In this document: in pieces, positions 3,250-29,952 of the stretch | Layout of the letters: the number at the start of each line of letters is the position of its first letter | How positions within the stretch are numbered: position 1 is the stretch's first letter | Source of the DNA: Promethearchaeota archaeon | Lineage (GTDB): Archaea; Asgardarchaeota; Lokiarchaeia; Sigyniarchaeales; SOKP01 | Assembly (NCBI GenBank): GCA_048937405.1 | Contig: JBHLNF010000004.1 | Location: 192,001-256,000 of the forward strand | Reading direction: 5' to 3' | DNA length: 64,000 bases | The notes under the pieces: generated by a model | Told to the model about the DNA's origin: nothing | The model's database searches: none | The model's input: the letters and a program-made list of their open reading frames with translations, nothing else | Translations under genes and position numbers: made by a program

Positions 3250-4458
3250 ATGAGGAAAGAAAAAATGAAATTAACTTCAGAAGAACAAAACATATTAGAT
3301 GGTAAATTTGGAAAAGCTGCCAAAAAGTCAATGGAAATATTAGTAACATTAGGAGACATATTCGATGCTGAATCAATGGTTGATGTATTTGGCGTTCAAA
3401 TAGCAGGAGTTTCATATGCAAATCTAGATGAGGCAGGTTTGGAATTTTTAAGTGAAATGGCTGAAGATGGCAAGGTTCGAGTCCTAACTACTTTAAATCC
3501 TGCTGGAATGGATCGAGAGAATTGGCAGGCTTTAGGTATTTCTGAAGAATTTGCTAAAAATCAAAATCGAGCTATTGATGCATTTGCTAAAATGGGTATA
3601 ATTACTACTTGTTCTTGTACACCTTACTTAATTGGTAATACTCCACACTATGGTCAACATCTTGCGTGGGCTGAAAGTAGTGCCGTATGTTATGCTAATT
3701 CAGTAATTGGTGCACGAACCAACCGTGAAGGAGGTCCAAGCGCTTTAGCATCAGCTATTACAGGAAAAACTCCTAGATATGGTTATCATTTAGATGAAAA
3801 TCGTCATGGGGAAGTTTTATTTGAAGTTAATGCTAAAGTTAAAGGAACAGATGAATTTGGTGTTTTAGGAAAAATAATTGGGGATAAATTGGTAGAATTA
3901 GGAAAGAAAATTCCTTATATAGAAGGTATTCCTGAAGCGACAGTTGAGGAACTCAAATCGTTTTGTGCTTCTGTTGCAACATATGGCGGAACTGCTTTAT
4001 TCCATATGGAGGGAGTTACGCCAGAGTATAATGATTATCCTAAACCGACTGATATCACATTTGAAATCAACCAAAACGACCTAGATAAAACACGCTTAGA
4101 ACTTATTGATGATGATCTTGAGATAGATTTTGTAAGTATAGGATGTCCACATGCTTCAATTCACGAAATTGAAAGAATTGCCAGGCTATTAAAAGGAAAG
4201 AAAGTGAAAAAAGAATTTTGGATTACTACTGCCCGTCCTACAAAAAGAATCGCTGATGAAGCTGGTTATTCAAAAATAATTGAAGAAGCAGGAGCGAAAT
4301 TTGCAGCAGATACATGTTGTGTTGTTGCTCCAATTAAGGGTCGGTTTAAAGGAATAATGGTAGATTCAGCGAAAGCTTGTTATTATGGGCGCGCAAAAAA
4401 CCAATTTAAAGTAAAAATAGGATCAATTGAGGAATGTATTGAGGAGGCAATAAAATGA
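3250..4458 (+). CDS. Aconitase X catalytic subunit, probably phosphomevalonate dehydratase large subunit (start may be ATG 3265)
   Basis: TTLNPAG, CSCTPY, WAESSAV..ANSVIGARTNREGG, IGCPH, DTCCVV, DSAK motifs. Confidence 0.9.
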   Translation: MRKEKMKLTSEEQNILDGKFGKAAKKSMEILVTLGDIFDAESMVDVFGVQIAGVSYANLDEAGLEFLSEMAEDGKVRVLTTLNPAGMDRENWQALGISEEFAKNQNRAIDAFAKMGIITTCSCTPYLIGNTPHYGQHLAWAESSAVCYANSVIGARTNREGGPSALASAITGKTPRYGYHLDENRHGEVLFEVNAKVKGTDEFGVLGKIIGDKLVELGKKIPYIEGIPEATVEELKSFCASVATYGGTALFHMEGVTPEYNDYPKPTDITFEINQNDLDKTRLELIDDDLEIDFVSIGCPHASIHEIERIARLLKGKKVKKEFWITTARPTKRIADEAGYSKIIEEAGAKFAADTCCVVAPIKGRFKGIMVDSAKACYYGRAKNQFKVKIGSIEECIEEAIK

Positions 4459-4847
4459 AGTTAAAAGGAAGAAAAATCTATAAAGGAACTGTTGAAGCAG
4501 AGGCGATTGTCACCAAAGATGGAATTTCTTTTTATGGAGGGGTAGATCCCGATACAGGAAAAGTAGTGGAAGTTGGACATGAGCTAGAAGGGCAATCAAT
4601 AACAGGAAAAGTTTTGGTTTTTCCAACAGGGAAAGGATCAACAGTAGGATCATATACTATGTATCGGATGAAAAAAAATAATACAGCTCCCGCAGCAATT
4701 ATAAATAAACAAATTGATACAATTATAGCAGTAGGTTGTATTATTAGTGAAATTCCTTGTGTCGATAAAATTAATATAGATGAGATAAAGACTGGTCAAA
4801 AACTAATTGTTAATGGAACAGAAGGAACAATAGAATTAATCGATTAA
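4455..4847 (+). CDS. Aconitase X swivel subunit (DUF126), phosphomevalonate dehydratase small subunit
   Basis: SFYGGVDPDTG and GKGSTVGS motifs; ATGA overlap with the large subunit. Confidence 0.9.
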   Translation: MKLKGRKIYKGTVEAEAIVTKDGISFYGGVDPDTGKVVEVGHELEGQSITGKVLVFPTGKGSTVGSYTMYRMKKNNTAPAAIINKQIDTIIAVGCIISEIPCVDKINIDEIKTGQKLIVNGTEGTIELID

Positions 4848-5167
4848 TTTAATATACATTCTAATTAAATCATTAGCAATAAGCCACTCAGATATTACGT
4901 TCTACACATCTTAAGTTTATAGATATTAAATATCCTCAAAATTAAATATAATTTTAGATTCCATTGAAAATACTGAAAACACAAATCTTATAAAACTGTA
5001 AATGATACTTACATAACAATTGAGAGTTTTTTATAATCCCACTCTAAAATGTTTTATTTCTTCTCCTACTTTTTAAATAAAGTAAAATTTGATCAAATTA
5101 AGTTATTTAAATAATTTTGAATATTTTCAAATTTTAATAAATCAAACGACTTTAATTGGTGAAAAAA

Positions 5168-6134
5168 TTGGGTATTGGAAAAGGATATGGAAAGACCATA
5201 CTTTTTGGCGAAATTTAATTCTTAATTCAAGAATAAACGCAATCATTTTGTAGTTTATGGTCTTCCTGCGATAGCATCAGCATTAGGCTCTTATACAACG
5301 GCAGAAGTTAATATAGTTAAAGGTAATGGTTGGACAGTTGATGATCAAAGAATAGCAACACCGGGTTACAAAAAACAGAAATATAGTGAGGCTATAGGGT
5401 CAATTAAAAATGTTATTGAATTTTTAAAAATTGATACTACTAATCAAAAACTTGAAATAACATTTTCAGGCGATCTAATTGCCGCAAGTGGAGTAGGTGC
5501 ATCAGCAGCTCAAAGTACATCACTTTCCCGCGCAATAAATGATGCATTTAATCTTAATTTAAATGATGAGAAGATTAATGAAGCGGCTTATGAAGGAGAG
5601 AAAGCTTATCATGGTACACCATCTGGAATTGACAATACAGCTTCAACTTATGGAGGTTTAATTTGGTTTGTTAAGAATTTAACTGGAGGAAAAAATACTA
5701 TGGAACTATTGCAATCACCAAAGAAGATGCCCTTGGTAATTTTAAATACAGGAATAACAGCCTCTACAACAGAAGTAGTAACTGATGTTAGACGCTTAAA
5801 AGAGGAATCTCCTAAAAAGTATGAAAAAATCTTTAATCAATATGAAAATCTAGCTATAAAAGCGAAAAATGCTTTACTTGAGGGAGATATTGTCAAGATA
5901 GGTGAATTAATGAATCAAAATCATAAAATGTTACAAGACATAACAGTTTCTGGAGAAATTAATGATAAACTTGTCGAAATCGCACTTCAAAATGGAGCAC
6001 TAGGTGCTAAAATGACTGGAACGGGAAGAGGGGGATTAGTAATTGCTTTAGTAGAAACTGAAAATATACAAGAAAAAATTGCGGAAGCTGTTGAAAAAGA
6101 AGGATACAATGCCTGGAAAACCATGATAGGATGA
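5168..6134 (+). CDS. mvk: Mevalonate kinase, two exons join(5168..5212,5244..6134), 311 aa after removal of a 31-nt intron
   Basis: GGTGA SD at 5158-5162, TTG start, exon 1 MGIGKGYGKTILFGE; exon 2 HFVVYGLPAIA...SGVGASAA...HGTPSGIDN...KMTGTGRGG is open and in frame with the 5700..6134 ORF of the track. Confidence 0.9.
5213..5243 (+). other. Candidate archaeal BHB-type intron in mvk pre-mRNA (31 nt)
   Basis: ATTTAATTCTTAATTCAAGAATAAACGCAAT interrupts GE|H; hairpin ATTCTT/AAGAAT plus TTT/AAA; central helix GGCG/CGCA (3 of 4 pairs); bulges AA^A and AT^C; exon-exon helix AAGACCATA(5192-5200)/TATGGTCTT(5256-5264). Confidence 0.8.
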
Positions 6135-6147
6135 GTATGAGGAAAAA

Positions 6148-8040
6148 TTGAAAAAGAACAATGAAATAATTCTGCTTAAATTAGGTGGAAGTTTACTAAC
6201 TGATAAGAATAAGCCATTTTCACTTAGAGAAGAAATTTTAGAAAAATGTCTCAATCAGATAATTGACAGTAAGAAATCAATAATTTTGATTCATGGTGGC
6301 GGGTCATTTGGTCACCCTCTTGCTAAAAAATATAAAATTTCGCAGGGTTTGAATAAGTCTATTGAAAACCAAATAATAGGGCTTTCAAAAACTCATGATG
6401 CCATGAATCAATTAAATTCCGTTATTATAAAAAAATTTCTTGAAAAGGAATATCCTGCAATTTCAATCCAACCTTCAAGCATTTTTATGCAAGGTTTTAA
6501 TGAAATTAATATTAAATCAATAGAACCTATTGAAAAATTGCTTGATCTTGGAGTAATACCCGTCCTTTATGGAGATATTCTTCTCAGTCAAGATTATTCT
6601 TTTTCAATTTTATCTGGAGATTACATTATTTTGAAATTATGTGAGAATATTCAAAATTTTAATATTTCAAAAGTAATATTTGCGATTGAGGAAGATGGAA
6701 TATTTATTAATGAGAATGGTAATAAAAAATTAGCTTTAAAATTGACACTTAGCGATTTATCTACTATAAAATTAGCGAAATTAGGACAAAAGATTGATGT
6801 AACAGGGGGAATAAGAGGAAAATTAAAACAAATTGAAGAAATCTTAAAATTAAATATACCTGTTCAAATTATTAATGGTATCAAAAATAAAAATATATTG
6901 AAAGCATTAACAAACCAATATATCGAATGTACGAATATTGAAATATCATCAAATAAATTAGCTGAAAGTCAAATATATAATAGAAAAATTGAACATATTA
7001 AGATACCTTTAGAACACAACGTTCAACATGCAATTAATTATTTTGATGATATTACTTTAATTCATCATCCTCTCCCAGAATTTGAATTAGAGGAGACTAA
7101 TATATCTGTAGATTTCTTTAAAAAACAAATATCTGCTCCAATTTGTATTTCAGCAATCACCGGTGGTCATCAGATTTCTAAAGCTATCAACAATATTTTA
7201 GCAAATGCTGCCAAAACAGAAAATATAGTACTGGGAGTCGGTAGTCAGAGAATAGGATTAGAAGATCCTTCCACAATTGAATCATTCAGCGTAATCCGCG
7301 ATGTAGCACCCAATATTCCTGTAATAGGAAATTTAGGGATAGGGCAAGTATGTGATCCCAATTTTGATATTGATAATTTCAATAAATGCATTGATATGAT
7401 TGAAGCGGATGCTATGGCCATACACTTTAATGCTTTACATGAACTTGTTCAAAAAGAAGGCAACATTTCCTTTAAAAATTTTGAAGAAAGATTCAAAGAA
7501 ATCAGAAAAAAAATAAGTATTCCAATTATAGCTAAAGAAGTTGGATCAGGATTTAATAAAGAATTAGCTATAAAGCTTGATTTATTGGGATTTGATGGAT
7601 TTGATGTTGGCGGAGCAGGTGGTACAAGTTTTGCGGCAATTGAGTCGATACGAGATGATTATAGCTTTGAAGTATTTACTAGAAAGATTGCAGATACTTT
7701 TCGTGAATGGGGAATTCCTACTCCTGTAAGTATATCAAATGTAAGAGACGTATCTAAGAAATTAATAATTGCAACGGGAGGGTTACGGTCTGGAGTTGAT
7801 ATCGCCAAATCAATTGTGTTAGGTGCTGATATTGGAGGTTTTGCCTATAAGTTCTTAAAGACGGCATGGCAAGATTATAAAAATAATTCTTTCATTCACA
7901 CAATTAAAGAAATCAAAACTCTAAAACATGAATTAAGATCCTCTATGTGGTTGATGAATGTTAAGAATATTAACAGTCTCAGTTGTAATAGTGATAAAAG
8001 AATCTTGGTTGGTAAATTATATCAGTGGTTAAATCAATGA
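6148..8040 (+). CDS. fni: Fusion of isopentenyl phosphate kinase (N-term) and type 2 isopentenyl-diphosphate isomerase (C-term)
   Basis: KLGGSLLTDK, HGGGSFGH, SGD, DVTGG (IPK); RKIEHI, AITGG, GSQR, KEVGSG, GAGGTSFAAIE, WGIPT, ATGGLR (IDI-2). Confidence 0.92.
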   Translation: MKKNNEIILLKLGGSLLTDKNKPFSLREEILEKCLNQIIDSKKSIILIHGGGSFGHPLAKKYKISQGLNKSIENQIIGLSKTHDAMNQLNSVIIKKFLEKEYPAISIQPSSIFMQGFNEINIKSIEPIEKLLDLGVIPVLYGDILLSQDYSFSILSGDYIILKLCENIQNFNISKVIFAIEEDGIFINENGNKKLALKLTLSDLSTIKLAKLGQKIDVTGGIRGKLKQIEEILKLNIPVQIINGIKNKNILKALTNQYIECTNIEISSNKLAESQIYNRKIEHIKIPLEHNVQHAINYFDDITLIHHPLPEFELEETNISVDFFKKQISAPICISAITGGHQISKAINNILANAAKTENIVLGVGSQRIGLEDPSTIESFSVIRDVAPNIPVIGNLGIGQVCDPNFDIDNFNKCIDMIEADAMAIHFNALHELVQKEGNISFKNFEERFKEIRKKISIPIIAKEVGSGFNKELAIKLDLLGFDGFDVGGAGGTSFAAIESIRDDYSFEVFTRKIADTFREWGIPTPVSISNVRDVSKKLIIATGGLRSGVDIAKSIVLGADIGGFAYKFLKTAWQDYKNNSFIHTIKEIKTLKHELRSSMWLMNVKNINSLSCNSDKRILVGKLYQWLNQ

Positions 8041-29578: not shown

Positions 29579-29722
29579 AAATTGTTCAATATATATTACT
29601 AAATAATTTTACTAATATATTATTCTTTGTAATTTAAATATAAAAGATTCTGTTATACTTAAAGTATTGGCTGATCTATGCGGGAAGGGAGATTTGAACT
29701 CCCGAACTCCTACGAGAATGGG

Positions 29723-29744
29723 TTTCAGGTCAGGGAAATTGACA
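29723..29744 (-). other. tRNA intron 2 (22 nt, position 38/39 by BHB geometry)
   Basis: Central helix TCAG/CTGA, bulges AA^T and AA^C, intron stem GTCA/TGAC. Confidence 0.85.
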
Positions 29745-29761
29745 TTCTGAGCCCATCGCCT

Positions 29762-29794
29762 ATAATCGGCTTTTGGATAGAAACATATCCACCT
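29762..29794 (-). other. tRNA intron 1 (33 nt, D-loop, BHB)
   Basis: Central helix GGTC/GATT, bulges AA^A and AT^A, internal hairpin TGGATA/TATCCA; removal gives GGTCAA-AGGCG. Confidence 0.85.
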
Positions 29795-29952
29795 TTGACC
29801 AAACTTGGCAATTCCCGCAAAGTTTTTGTTTTTATTCTTAGTTCTTTATATAGTTAACTATTGATTATTCAAAATTGTTAATAATTTTAACGATTTTTAC
29901 TTATATTCATAAGGAATGTAGTATAAAAATAATCCTTCATTCTTATGAGAAA

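What the first reader, a model, noticed from the sequence alone, without database searches (positions are those of the whole stretch)
5168..5266. Candidate tRNA-type (bulge-helix-bulge) intron in the mevalonate kinase mRNA of an Asgard-like archaeon
Seen: exon 1 reads MGIGKGYGKTILFGE and then meets TAA (5216). The rest of the kinase resumes 31 nt later in another frame at HFVVYG (5244), and that frame has its own stop at 5223, so a single frameshift or indel error cannot join them. Removing exactly 5213-5243 restores the conserved GK.ILFGEH..VYG motif and a 311-aa ORF with no other lesion. The junctions fold like a splicing-endonuclease substrate: central helix GGCG(5207-10)/CGCA(5238-41) with one G-A mismatch, 3-nt bulges AAA(5211-13) and ATC(5242-44), intron stem TTT+ATTCTT/AAGAAT+AAA, and a 9-bp exon-exon helix AAGACCATA/TATGGTCTT beyond an internal loop. 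Established: EndA cuts after the second nucleotide of each bulge, which here gives precisely GAA^ and ^CAT; archaeal mRNA introns of this type are best known from crenarchaeal cbf5. Inference: a lipid-synthesis gene is spliced by EndA/RtcB, possibly as a post-transcriptional control point, reminiscent of tRNA-ligase-dependent HAC1/XBP1 splicing. Automatic annotation would call it a truncated or pseudogenised mvk.
Basis: partly seen in the sequence, partly recalled or inferred. Interest (0 to 1): 0.95.

Follow-up and report, generated by a model that had tools for sequence, protein, structure and literature searches.

The report
tRNA-type intron in Asgard mevalonate kinase
The only mevalonate kinase gene of this Loki-type Asgard archaeon is broken by a 31-base insert shaped like a tRNA intron. 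The insert sits at the same spot, with compensating base changes, in 21 related species and is cleanly absent in 21 others. The mRNA therefore almost certainly has to be cut and rejoined by the tRNA-splicing enzymes, which the papers I could search document for only one archaeal protein-coding sequence (cbf5).

Summary
A 31-nt insert (5213-5243) splits the single mvk gene between codons 15 and 16, inside the GK.ILFGEH.VVYG motif, and both exon frames are closed across it.

It is not an assembly error or a pseudogene:
- 21 species-level genomes carry a 30-31-nt insert at the identical site, each with an in-frame stop.
- All 21 have an intact 296-codon exon 2 (dN/dS about 0.12).
- 21 relatives have a clean GAA|CAT junction.

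RNAalifold independently recovers the proposed fold. Covariation supports the central helix and the intron hairpin. An 11-bp exon-exon helix is kept only in insert-bearing alleles.

The motif is relaxed (HBh'/BHL type; 3 of 4 central pairs here, 4 of 4 in six relatives). The genome encodes a two-subunit EndA with the crenarchaeal loop lysine, and RtcB.

Verdict: an EndA/RtcB-spliced mRNA intron, probability about 0.87. It is a new member of the kind known in print only from crenarchaeal cbf5.

The HAC1-like regulatory idea has no support: pfk, elp3 and a zinc-ribbon gene in this genome carry similar mini-introns.

This scan has reported the same phenomenon before on other Asgard DNA.

The parts
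5158..5162 (+). Shine-Dalgarno-like GGTGA, 5 nt upstream of the TTG start
   Evidence: Read directly from the sequence. In relatives the same position carries GGAGGT followed by ATG.
5168..5212 (+). mvk exon 1: 15 codons (MGIGKGYGKTILFGE), TTG start, ending in phase 0 after GAA
   Evidence: GYGKTILFGE is invariant except for Y/F in 21 insert-bearing species, despite synonymous changes.
5213..5243 (+). 31-nt intron. It carries the exon-1-frame stop (TAA 5216-5218) and the stop that closes the exon-2 frame (TAA 5223-5225).
   Evidence: A 30-31-nt insert sits at the identical site in 21 genomes and is precisely absent in 21.
5244..6134 (+). mvk exon 2: 296 codons plus stop
   Evidence: TIGR00549 positions 11-276; GHMP_kinases_N and _C. 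dN/dS is 0.12 among insert-bearing alleles.
5207..5210 (+). Central helix H, 5' strand (GGCG, end of exon 1). It pairs with 5238-5241.
   Evidence: G5208-C5240, C5209-G5239 and G5210-C5238 are paired in all 21. There is one compensatory change (GGUG/CAC) and wobble variants. G5207.A5241 becomes G.U in 6 of 21.
5211..5213 (+). 5' three-nucleotide bulge AAA. The predicted cut after 5212 equals the exon 1 end required by the protein.
   Evidence: The rule of cutting after the second bulge nucleotide is from PMC2738675.
5214..5237 (+). Intron hairpin h' (UUU + AUUCUU / AAGAAU + AAA, one bulged A, 5-nt loop)
   Evidence: Six pairs show changes on both sides across species.
5238..5241 (+). Central helix H, 3' strand (CGCA, 3' end of the intron)
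5242..5244 (+). 3' splice-site trinucleotide AUC. The predicted cut after 5243 equals the exon 2 start. It lies in an internal loop, not a closed bulge.
   Evidence: Only U5206-A5245 can pair next to it.
5189..5200 (+). Exon-exon helix, 5' strand (GGAA-A-GACCAUA)
   Evidence: It forms 10.4 of 11 pairs in insert-bearing alleles and 7.3 of 11 in insert-free alleles.
5256..5266 (+). Exon-exon helix, 3' strand (UAUGGUCUUCC)
3250..4847 (+). Upstream operon genes: AcnX-type dehydratase, large (3250-4458) and small/DUF126 (4455-4847) subunits. I read these as phosphomevalonate dehydratase of the archaeal mevalonate pathway (inference).
6148..8040 (+). Downstream gene: fusion of isopentenyl phosphate kinase and type-2 IPP isomerase (630 aa)

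Best explanation
The 31 nt at 5213-5243 are an archaeal tRNA-type intron inside the coding sequence of the single mevalonate kinase gene.

Proposed fold of the pre-mRNA:
- The last bases of exon 1 (GGCG) pair with the last bases of the intron (CGCA) and form the central helix.
- On its 5' side lies a 3-nt bulge (AAA), closed by the intron's own hairpin.
- On its 3' side the trinucleotide AUC lies in an internal loop.
- An 11-bp exon-exon helix (5189-5200 with 5256-5266) clamps the whole 78-nt domain.

Proposed reaction:
- The two-subunit (alpha-beta)2 splicing endonuclease, which carries the crenarchaeal specificity loop, cuts after the second nucleotide at each site (after 5212 and after 5243).
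- RtcB joins GAA to CAU, and probably circularises the 31-mer.
- This restores GK.ILFGEH.VVYG and a 311-aa kinase.

Shown here: the insert, its exact conservation of site, covariation of the helices, precise insert-free alleles, selection on both exons, single copy, and presence of the enzymes.

Inferred: that these enzymes do the cutting and joining, the exact cut sites, and that splicing is constitutive.

The intron looks ancestral to this genus-level clade. It was lost precisely several times, or lost once and spread by recombination.
For: 1. Site and recurrence. 21 species-level genomes have a 30- or 31-nt insert exactly between GAA and CAT. Every one has a stop in the exon-1 frame, and exon 2 is intact at 296 codons. 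21 relatives have a contiguous junction.
2. Structure. RNAalifold, run without guidance, returns the same H / 3-nt bulge / h' / exon-exon helix.
3. Pair counts (21 sequences). 88.5% of cells are paired, against 39-50% when the partners are slid by 1-3 columns. Seven pairs have changes on both sides. 0-2 of 500 shuffles reach the observed values (18-sequence version).
4. Central helix. Its three core pairs hold in all 21 sequences, with one compensatory change (GGUG/CAC) and G.U variants. The fourth pair forms as G.U in 6 of 21.
5. Exon-exon helix. It forms 10.4 of 11 pairs in insert-bearing alleles and 7.3 of 11 in insert-free alleles, through synonymous third positions.
6. Selection. Median dN/dS of exon 2 is 0.12 in insert-bearing alleles and 0.10 in insert-free alleles. 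Exon 1 keeps GYGKTILFGE (Y/F apart) despite synonymous changes.
7. Copy number. There is no second mvk. Only this locus passes the TIGR00549 cut-off.
8. Tree. The two earliest-branching in-clade alleles carry the insert, and well-supported branches force at least 5 gain/loss events.
9. Machinery.
   - Two EndA paralogues. One aligns end to end with the A. pernix and S. tokodaii catalytic subunits, including the specificity loop with K55/R57 matching K44/R46.
   - The other paralogue lacks the catalytic His by my reading of the sequence (PMC3241643).
   - One RtcB.
10. Busy pathway. 14 of 20 detected tRNA genes are 90-140 nt long. One in this window has two inserts.
11. Other genes.
   - pfk (31 nt, splitting GGG|DCPGLN; the Pfam match starts at profile position 11).
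   - elp3 (31 nt, 4 of 4 central pairs).
   - A zinc-ribbon gene (29 nt). All three show the same architecture.
   - The pfk insert is present in 4 genus genomes and precisely absent in about 17.
Against: - No RNA was seen.
- The motif is relaxed. Here it has 3 of 4 central pairs. The 3' site is in a loop, with only one possible adjacent exon pair.
- The fold is weak on a single sequence: z = -1.78, and the hairpin is -0.8 kcal/mol.
- BHB-like motifs of this looseness are common by chance in this AT-rich genome (1.15% of exact registers).
- My genome-wide screens for BHB plus ORF merging found no excess over decoy registers, so the motif alone proves little.
- The 21 sequences are kin, so covariation counts overstate the number of independent events.
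- The exon-exon helix shows no double compensatory change, only retention.
Confidence: 0.87

Rival explanations
1. Recoding at the ribosome. The insert stays in the mRNA and is skipped by translational bypassing (as in phage T4 gene 60), or is crossed by two frameshifts.
For: The insert is short and hairpin-forming, and a stop follows soon after the last sense codon. In G000 the third frame is open from 5089 to 5253.
Against: - There are no matched take-off and landing codons. Take-off would be GAA. The codons before CAT are AAT, TAT, AAA, TAA or TAG across species.
- The stop lies 2 to 8 codons after GAA, not directly after it.
- Two alleles have 30-nt inserts with in-frame stops, which frameshifting cannot cross.
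- Two shifts would insert about 10 residues into the most conserved motif of the enzyme.
- The covarying pairs between exon 1 and the 3' end of the insert are what a BHB substrate needs, not what a bypass needs.
Confidence: 0.04
2. The gene is dead or N-terminally truncated in insert-bearing species. The insert is a tolerated lesion and the pathway is served otherwise.
For: Gene callers annotate truncated or wrongly extended products. Three genomes of the genus show only a 33-35% identical mvk homologue.
Against: - 21 species keep both exons intact. dN/dS is 0.12, the same as in insert-free alleles, and exon 1 is conserved at the protein level with synonymous change.
- There is no start codon for 152 codons of exon 2.
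- There is no second mvk in a genome scored 100% complete.
- Insert length and structure are conserved.
Confidence: 0.03
3. The intron is spliced by EndA and RtcB, but splicing is regulated. It would then act as a post-transcriptional gate on isoprenoid lipid synthesis.
For: - The intron sits in the first committed kinase of an operon-encoded mevalonate pathway.
- The 3' site is unusually relaxed, and a long-range exon clamp is maintained by selection. Both could make cleavage condition-dependent.
- The Haloferax 5' UTR intron is thought to affect expression (PMC7714728).
Against: - About half of the sampled species do without the intron.
- Similar mini-introns interrupt unrelated genes (pfk, elp3, a zinc-ribbon gene) in the same genome. 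This fits neutral or selfish persistence better than a lipid-specific switch.
- No sensor element or ligand-like structure is conserved in the 31 nt beyond the helices.
- No Ire1-type nuclease was found (uninformative control).
Confidence: 0.1
4. The insert is removed from the RNA, but by a route other than EndA/RtcB (another endonuclease or ligase, or self-cleavage).
For: The motif fails the strict hBHBh' definition at the 3' site. No enzymology was done.
Against: - 31 nt is far too small for a group I or group II ribozyme.
- The frame-restoring junctions coincide exactly with the 'cut after the second nucleotide' rule on both sides of a covarying 3-4-bp helix.
- The host EndA has the loop and lysine that allow BHL cleavage in A. 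pernix.
Confidence: 0.04

Closest known systems
BHB intron of the cbf5 (pseudouridine synthase) pre-mRNA in Crenarchaeota (Watanabe 2002; Yoshinari 2006; Yokobori 2009, PMC2738675)
   Same: - A short intron inside a coding sequence, with an 'unconventional' BHB.
- Exon borders coincide with cuts between the 2nd and 3rd bulge residues.
- The host has a hetero-oligomeric EndA.
- The intron is ancestral to a clade, with lineage-specific precise losses.
- Gene finders miss it.
   Different: - A different gene (mvk, central lipid metabolism) and a different phylum (Asgard, Promethearchaeota).
- cbf5 itself is uninterrupted in this genome.
- The 3' site lies in an internal loop.
- A remote 11-bp exon-exon helix is co-maintained.
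- It is one of several such introns in the same genome.
- There is cDNA evidence for cbf5 and none here.
Non-canonical (HBh', hBH, BHL) tRNA introns of TACK and Asgard archaea, cleaved by (alpha-beta)2 EndA with the crenarchaeal specific loop (PMC5829648, PMC3241643; Asgard tRNA census 10.64898/2026.10.13.758758)
   Same: - The same motif grammar, and a size of about 30 nt.
- The same predicted enzymes.
- The genome is rich in interrupted tRNA genes.
- The EndA catalytic subunit has the loop with the conserved Lys.
   Different: - The host RNA is an mRNA, so the exonic half of the motif must also encode protein (GGC GAA).
- Splicing must precede translation of the full ORF.
46-nt BHB intron in the 5' UTR of Haloferax volcanii HVO_1309 (PMC7714728)
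   Same: An mRNA substrate of the archaeal splicing endonuclease.
   Different: - It lies in the UTR, not the coding sequence, and does not interrupt a reading frame.
- It is a euryarchaeal homodimeric enzyme acting on a strict BHB.
- It has experimental proof.
HAC1/XBP1 unconventional mRNA splicing (Ire1 plus tRNA ligase or RtcB)
   Same: - Spliceosome-independent removal of a short intron from an mRNA.
- Joining is done by a tRNA-type ligase.
- Splicing changes the reading frame.
   Different: - The nuclease there is Ire1, which recognises paired stem-loops, not EndA on a BHB.
- No Ire1 KEN domain was found here.
- There is no evidence of stress regulation here.
Translational bypassing in phage T4 gene 60
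   Same: A short, hairpin-forming, non-triplet gap inside an ORF, with a stop near its start.
   Different: There are no matched take-off and landing codons, the stop is not adjacent to the take-off codon, and the covariation pattern is that of a BHB.

Membership tests
Archaeal BHB intron, strict hBHBh' class | Central helix of 4 base pairs | tested here: not met
   G000 has 3 pairs plus G5207.A5241. 6 of 21 relatives have 4 of 4 through G.U.
Archaeal BHB intron, strict hBHBh' class | Two closed 3-nt bulges on opposite strands, each flanked by an outer helix (h and h') of at least 2 bp | tested here: not met
   The 5' bulge AAA is closed by H and h' (3 + 6 bp). The 3' site AUC is followed by only one possible pair (U5206-A5245) and then an internal loop.
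Archaeal relaxed BHB intron (HBh' / BHL class) | One canonical bulge flanked by H and an outer helix. The other cut site lies in a loop directly 3' of H. | tested here: met
   The class definition is from PMC5829648 and PMC6379350.
Archaeal relaxed BHB intron (HBh' / BHL class) | Cuts after the 2nd nucleotide at each site reproduce the functional exon junction | tested here: met
   Cuts after 5212 and 5243 give GAA|CAT, which is the only join that restores GEH. Shifting by one base gives GAT or AAT. The rule is from PMC2738675.
Archaeal relaxed BHB intron (HBh' / BHL class) | The structure is conserved with covariation across homologous introns | tested here: met
Archaeal relaxed BHB intron (HBh' / BHL class) | The host encodes an EndA of broad specificity ((alpha-beta)2 or epsilon2, with the loop insert and its Lys) and an RtcB ligase | tested here: met
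   Two EndA paralogues. The alpha subunit aligns with 3P1Z_B and 2CV8 through the loop, with K55/R57 matching APE K44/R46. The second paralogue lacks the His by my reading. RtcB is present. Heterotetramer assembly itself was not tested.
Archaeal relaxed BHB intron (HBh' / BHL class) | Spliced RNA and/or a circular intron observed; cleavage by EndA in vitro | not testable with these tools
Archaeal pre-mRNA intron (cbf5 type) | It interrupts a protein-coding frame that is otherwise intact and under selection, and precise intron-less alleles exist in relatives | tested here: met
Translational bypass (T4 gene 60 type) | Identical take-off and landing codons flank the gap, and a stop follows directly after the take-off codon | tested here: not met
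   Take-off would be GAA, against AAT/TAT/AAA/TAA/TAG before CAT. The stop is 2-8 codons downstream.
HAC1/XBP1-type splicing | Ire1 kinase-endonuclease and its twin stem-loop sites | tested here: inconclusive
   There was no PF06479 match in G000, but the control set also had none. The stem-loop consensus was not examined.
Mevalonate kinase (TIGR00549) | Score above the curated cut-off, with the N-terminal GK.ILFGEH.VVYG motif | tested here: met
   Exon 2 alone scores 212 bits against 163. The motif is complete only after the join.

The most novel reading that the evidence does not exclude
Splicing of this intron is slow or condition-dependent, because its 3' site is relaxed and depends on a long-range exon-exon clamp. 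The tRNA-splicing machinery would then gate mevalonate kinase, and so membrane-lipid synthesis. This would be one visible case of a wider layer of EndA/RtcB-dependent mRNA control in Loki-type Asgard archaea, in which core genes such as pfk and elp3 are split in the same way.
Probability: 0.1. Interest if true: 0.9.

Novelty: new member of a known kind. Interest (0 to 1): 0.68.

Why it matters
State of the literature:
- For coding sequences, the papers I could search document endonuclease-dependent splicing of archaeal mRNA in one gene family only, cbf5 of Crenarchaeota.
- There is also one 5' UTR intron, in Haloferax. A 2020 paper says so explicitly (PMC7714728).

What this case adds:
- The same mechanism is very probably needed to make an essential lipid-pathway enzyme in the archaeal group closest to eukaryotes.
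- It has an unusually clean comparative record: 21 insert-bearing against 21 insert-free species, covariation, and repeated precise loss.
- At least three further genes of the same genome are split the same way.

Consequences, if confirmed by RNA data:
- Asgard gene models need intron-aware annotation. Public mvk records of relatives carry false N-termini.
- Translation of some core genes must wait for RNA processing.
- Gain and loss of mRNA introns can be studied on a species timescale in a prokaryote.
- The relaxed 3' site together with a remote exon clamp gives a defined substrate for asking how broad-specificity EndA measures its second cut.

Tried and rejected
RNA evidence
- As a substitute I scanned JGI metagenome contigs for the spliced junction with insert-type flanks. 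The exact pattern gave 0 hits.
- A degenerate pattern gave 8 hits. All are insert-free DNA alleles, mostly of other lineages and with upstream intergenic or gene context.
- Four 311-aa database proteins close to the insert-bearing clade (P0007, P0008, P0013, P0015) are all encoded by insert-free DNA alleles with relaxed flanks.
- None of this bears on whether splicing occurs.

Genome-wide de novo screens in G000
- I ran four filters: BHB geometry plus ORF merging, hairpin energy, GC-rich central helix, and start-less exon 2.
- None gave an excess over decoy registers. One search timed out.
- The relaxed motif is too common at 29% GC, and adjacent same-strand genes swamp the signal. The screens rediscovered mvk and elp3 but cannot count introns.

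Other checks
- ARAGORN and the Rfam gathering run found no tRNA in the window, although one with two inserts is there.
- The intron is not a repeated element. blastn-short finds no second copy in the genome.
- Assembly error is rejected, because 21 independent assemblies have diverged inserts.
- A single indel or frameshift is rejected, because both frames are closed between 5216 and 5225.
- A two-frameshift path and bypassing are rejected; see the rival explanations.
- A second mvk is rejected.
- An Ire1-type nuclease was not found, with an uninformative control.
- I did not run a monophyly test of insert-free alleles. Shared TTC and ACA codons among them hint that recombination, rather than five separate losses, may explain part of the pattern.
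Full report
**The observation**

- TTG at 5168, preceded by GGTGA, opens MGIGKGYGKTILFGE. The frame then runs into I-TAA (5216-5218).
- HFVVYG starts at 5244 in another frame. That frame is closed upstream by TAA 5223-5225 and then stays open for 296 codons to 6134.
- The exon-2 frame has no ATG, GTG or TTG before 5700.
- Exon 2 alone is a mevalonate kinase by NCBIfam (TIGR00549, 212 bits against a cut-off of 163). The match starts at profile position 11, so the N-terminal motif is missing from it.
- Removing exactly 5213-5243 gives GAA|CAT and a 311-codon gene. Moving the deletion by one base changes the Glu codon.

**The organism**

- The window is contig 17 of a 4.47-Mb, 29-contig genome with 28.9% GC.
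- Close mvk relatives are named Promethearchaeota, Lokiarchaeota, Lokiarchaeia or other Asgard labels. A few records carry what I take to be wrong Bathyarchaeota labels. Promethearchaeota is the current phylum name.
- 'Asgard-like' is therefore right.

**Not an artefact and not a pseudogene**

- I read mvk junctions in 42 genomes of this genus-level clade and its outgroups.
- 21 carry a 30- or 31-nt insert at exactly the GAA|CAT site, and 21 have a contiguous junction.
- Every insert has a stop in the exon-1 frame. Two inserts are 30 nt long with in-frame stops, so frameshifting cannot explain them.
- All 21 insert-bearing genes keep a 296-codon exon 2. Median pairwise dN/dS is 0.12, against 0.10 for insert-free alleles.
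- Exon 1 keeps GYGKTILFGE (Y/F apart) while synonymous positions vary.
- G000 has no second mvk. Only this locus passes the family cut-off. The next GHMP kinase scores 83 bits against a cut-off of 163.

**The structure**

  - a 3-bp core of the central helix, between the end of exon 1 and the 3' end of the insert;
  - a 3-nt bulge;
  - the insert's hairpin;
  - a long exon-exon helix.
- On all 21 sequences, 88.5% of cells form standard pairs. This falls to 39-50% when partners are slid by 1-3 columns.
- Seven pairs change on both sides, and 0-2 of 500 column shuffles reach the observed values.
- In the central helix, G-C, C-G and G-C hold everywhere. There is one compensatory U-A and several wobble variants. 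The fourth pair is G.A in 15 sequences and G.U in 6.
- The exon-exon helix (5189-5200 with 5256-5266) forms 10.4 of 11 pairs in insert-bearing alleles, through fixed synonymous third positions (ACC, ATA, CTT / TAT, GGT, CTT). It forms 7.3 of 11 pairs in insert-free alleles.
- That is retention, not compensatory change. The sequences are kin, so these numbers overstate independence.

**How strong is the motif by itself?**

It is weak.
- The MFE z-score is -1.78. The hairpin is worth -0.8 kcal/mol at 37 C.
- A motif this loose is met at 1.15% of exact registers in the genome.
- A recent census of Asgard tRNA introns warns that relaxed BHB classes arise by chance at most boundaries once placement is free (10.64898/2026.10.13.758758).
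- Here placement is not free, because the protein fixes both junctions. Only 1 of 48 neighbouring registers passes.
- By the published grammar the motif is HBh'/BHL, not strict hBHBh'. The 3' cut site lies in an internal loop next to H.

**The machinery**

- G000 has two EndA paralogues and one RtcB.
[quoted passage not shown] The alignment runs without a gap through the crenarchaeal specific loop.
- Its K55 and R57 match A. pernix K44 and R46. K44 is the residue shown to be needed for non-canonical and BHL substrates (PMC3241643).
- The C8 protein has the fold but, by my reading of the sequence, no catalytic His. Published work places (alpha-beta)2 EndA with this loop in Asgard archaea (PMC5829648).
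- The pathway is heavily used. 14 of 20 detectable tRNA genes are 90-140 nt long. One in this window carries two inserts.

**History**

- On a maximum-likelihood tree of the joined proteins, the two earliest in-clade branches carry the insert. Supported branches force at least 5 changes.
- With homologous inserts (shared AAACGC-A/U 3' ends), this reads as one old gain and several precise losses, as described for cbf5 (PMC2738675).
- Insert-free alleles share some unexpected codons (TTC, ACA). Spread of one loss by recombination is therefore an alternative that I did not test.

**Context in the same genome**

- Earlier notes of this scan flagged about 30-nt BHB inserts in other genes of this genome. 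They also reported follow-ups on other Asgard genomes, some claiming exactly spliced public RNA. I treated these as leads.
- I verified three cases.
- pfk:
  - It is split at GGG|DCPGLN by 31 nt, with a 4 of 4 GC-rich central helix. The Pfam match of exon 2 starts at profile position 11.
  - The insert is present in 4 genus genomes with a covarying hairpin, and precisely absent in about 17.
- elp3 is split by 31 nt with a canonical motif.
- A zinc-ribbon gene is split by 29 nt.
- cbf5 itself is uninterrupted.
- The mvk insert has no second copy in the genome.
- My own motif-based genome screens could not count such introns.

**Interpretation and comparison**

- The best explanation is an EndA-cut, RtcB-joined intron in a coding mRNA.
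- This is the kind known in print from crenarchaeal cbf5, with a Haloferax 5' UTR intron as the only other mRNA case (PMC7714728).
- I found no paper on such introns in Asgard protein genes.
- It fails the strict BHB definition and meets the relaxed one. It works like a non-canonical tRNA intron.
- The regulatory HAC1-like reading is not excluded, but nothing here supports it.
- Bypassing, frameshifting, pseudogenisation and assembly error are each contradicted by specific results.

**What is missing**

- No direct RNA or enzymatic evidence could be obtained.

Noticed in passing
window 29679-29818 (-): A tRNA gene of 140 nt (Rfam 34.3 bits) has two inserts: 38 nt in the D-loop region and 24 nt in the anticodon loop. 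ARAGORN and the whole-window Rfam gathering run both missed it.
   Followed up: partly
window 6148-8040 (+): A single 630-aa ORF fuses isopentenyl phosphate kinase to type-2 IPP isomerase. In a relative the kinase is a separate 276-aa gene.
   Followed up: no
window 3250-4847 (+): AcnX-type large (DUF521-like) and small (DUF126) subunits lie directly upstream of mvk. With the kinase-isomerase fusion downstream, this looks like an operon of the archaeal-type mevalonate pathway. About 320 nt of AT-rich spacer separates them from mvk here, whereas in several relatives the genes abut.
   Followed up: no
G000:C25:149016-149046 (L050:516-546): Phosphofructokinase is split at GGG|DCPGLN by a 31-nt insert with a 4 of 4 central helix (GCGG/CCGU). 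The same insert, with a covarying hairpin, is in G002, G005 and G012 and is precisely absent in about 17 genus genomes.
   Followed up: yes
L075, L078, L081, L085 (pfk of G009, G002, G012, G022): These pfk matches are 30 nt longer than in G000 and contain two in-frame stops. This suggests a second mini-intron site inside pfk that G000 lacks.
   Followed up: no
G000:C25:116201-116231 (L049:1201-1231): elp3 is split between ...GHKVD and KIELIIMGGTF by a 31-nt insert with a canonical BHB core (GUGG/CCAU; bulges ACA and AAA). Exon 1 carries ELP3_N and the radical-SAM cysteines. Exon 2 carries the rest of the radical SAM domain plus Radical_SAM_C.
   Followed up: partly
G000:C7 about 281188-281216 (-) (in L051): A small zinc-ribbon gene (KCPQCG ... 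KCGGCG) is split by a 29-nt insert with central helix CAGU/GCUG and an 8-bp hairpin. Joining gives AU|G = Met in frame.
   Followed up: partly
G000, whole genome: 558 of 4474 stop-to-stop open frames of at least 100 codons begin with 30 or more codons that have no ATG, GTG or TTG; 98 of them have 100 or more. This is far more than a geometric decay predicts. The cause was not resolved: split genes, spurious frames and assembly frameshifts are all possible.
   Followed up: no
P0002, P0003, P0004, P0009, P0012, P0094 (public mvk records of relatives): Annotated N-termini are artefacts of the insert: MKRN-HFVV, MAKFNSHFRNKRN-HFVV, MERPYFLVKLFSYFRNKHY-HFVV, a start at YGLPA, or the label 'partial'. 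Annotated lengths run from 293 to 325 aa instead of 311.
   Followed up: yes
G007, G021, G028 (same genus): These genomes show only a 33-35% identical mvk homologue with this query. They may have a different mvk type or an assembly gap.
   Followed up: no
G000:C25:43765-44106 (-): cbf5 (TruB_N), the classical intron host in Crenarchaeota, lies in one uninterrupted 342-codon open frame here.
   Followed up: yes
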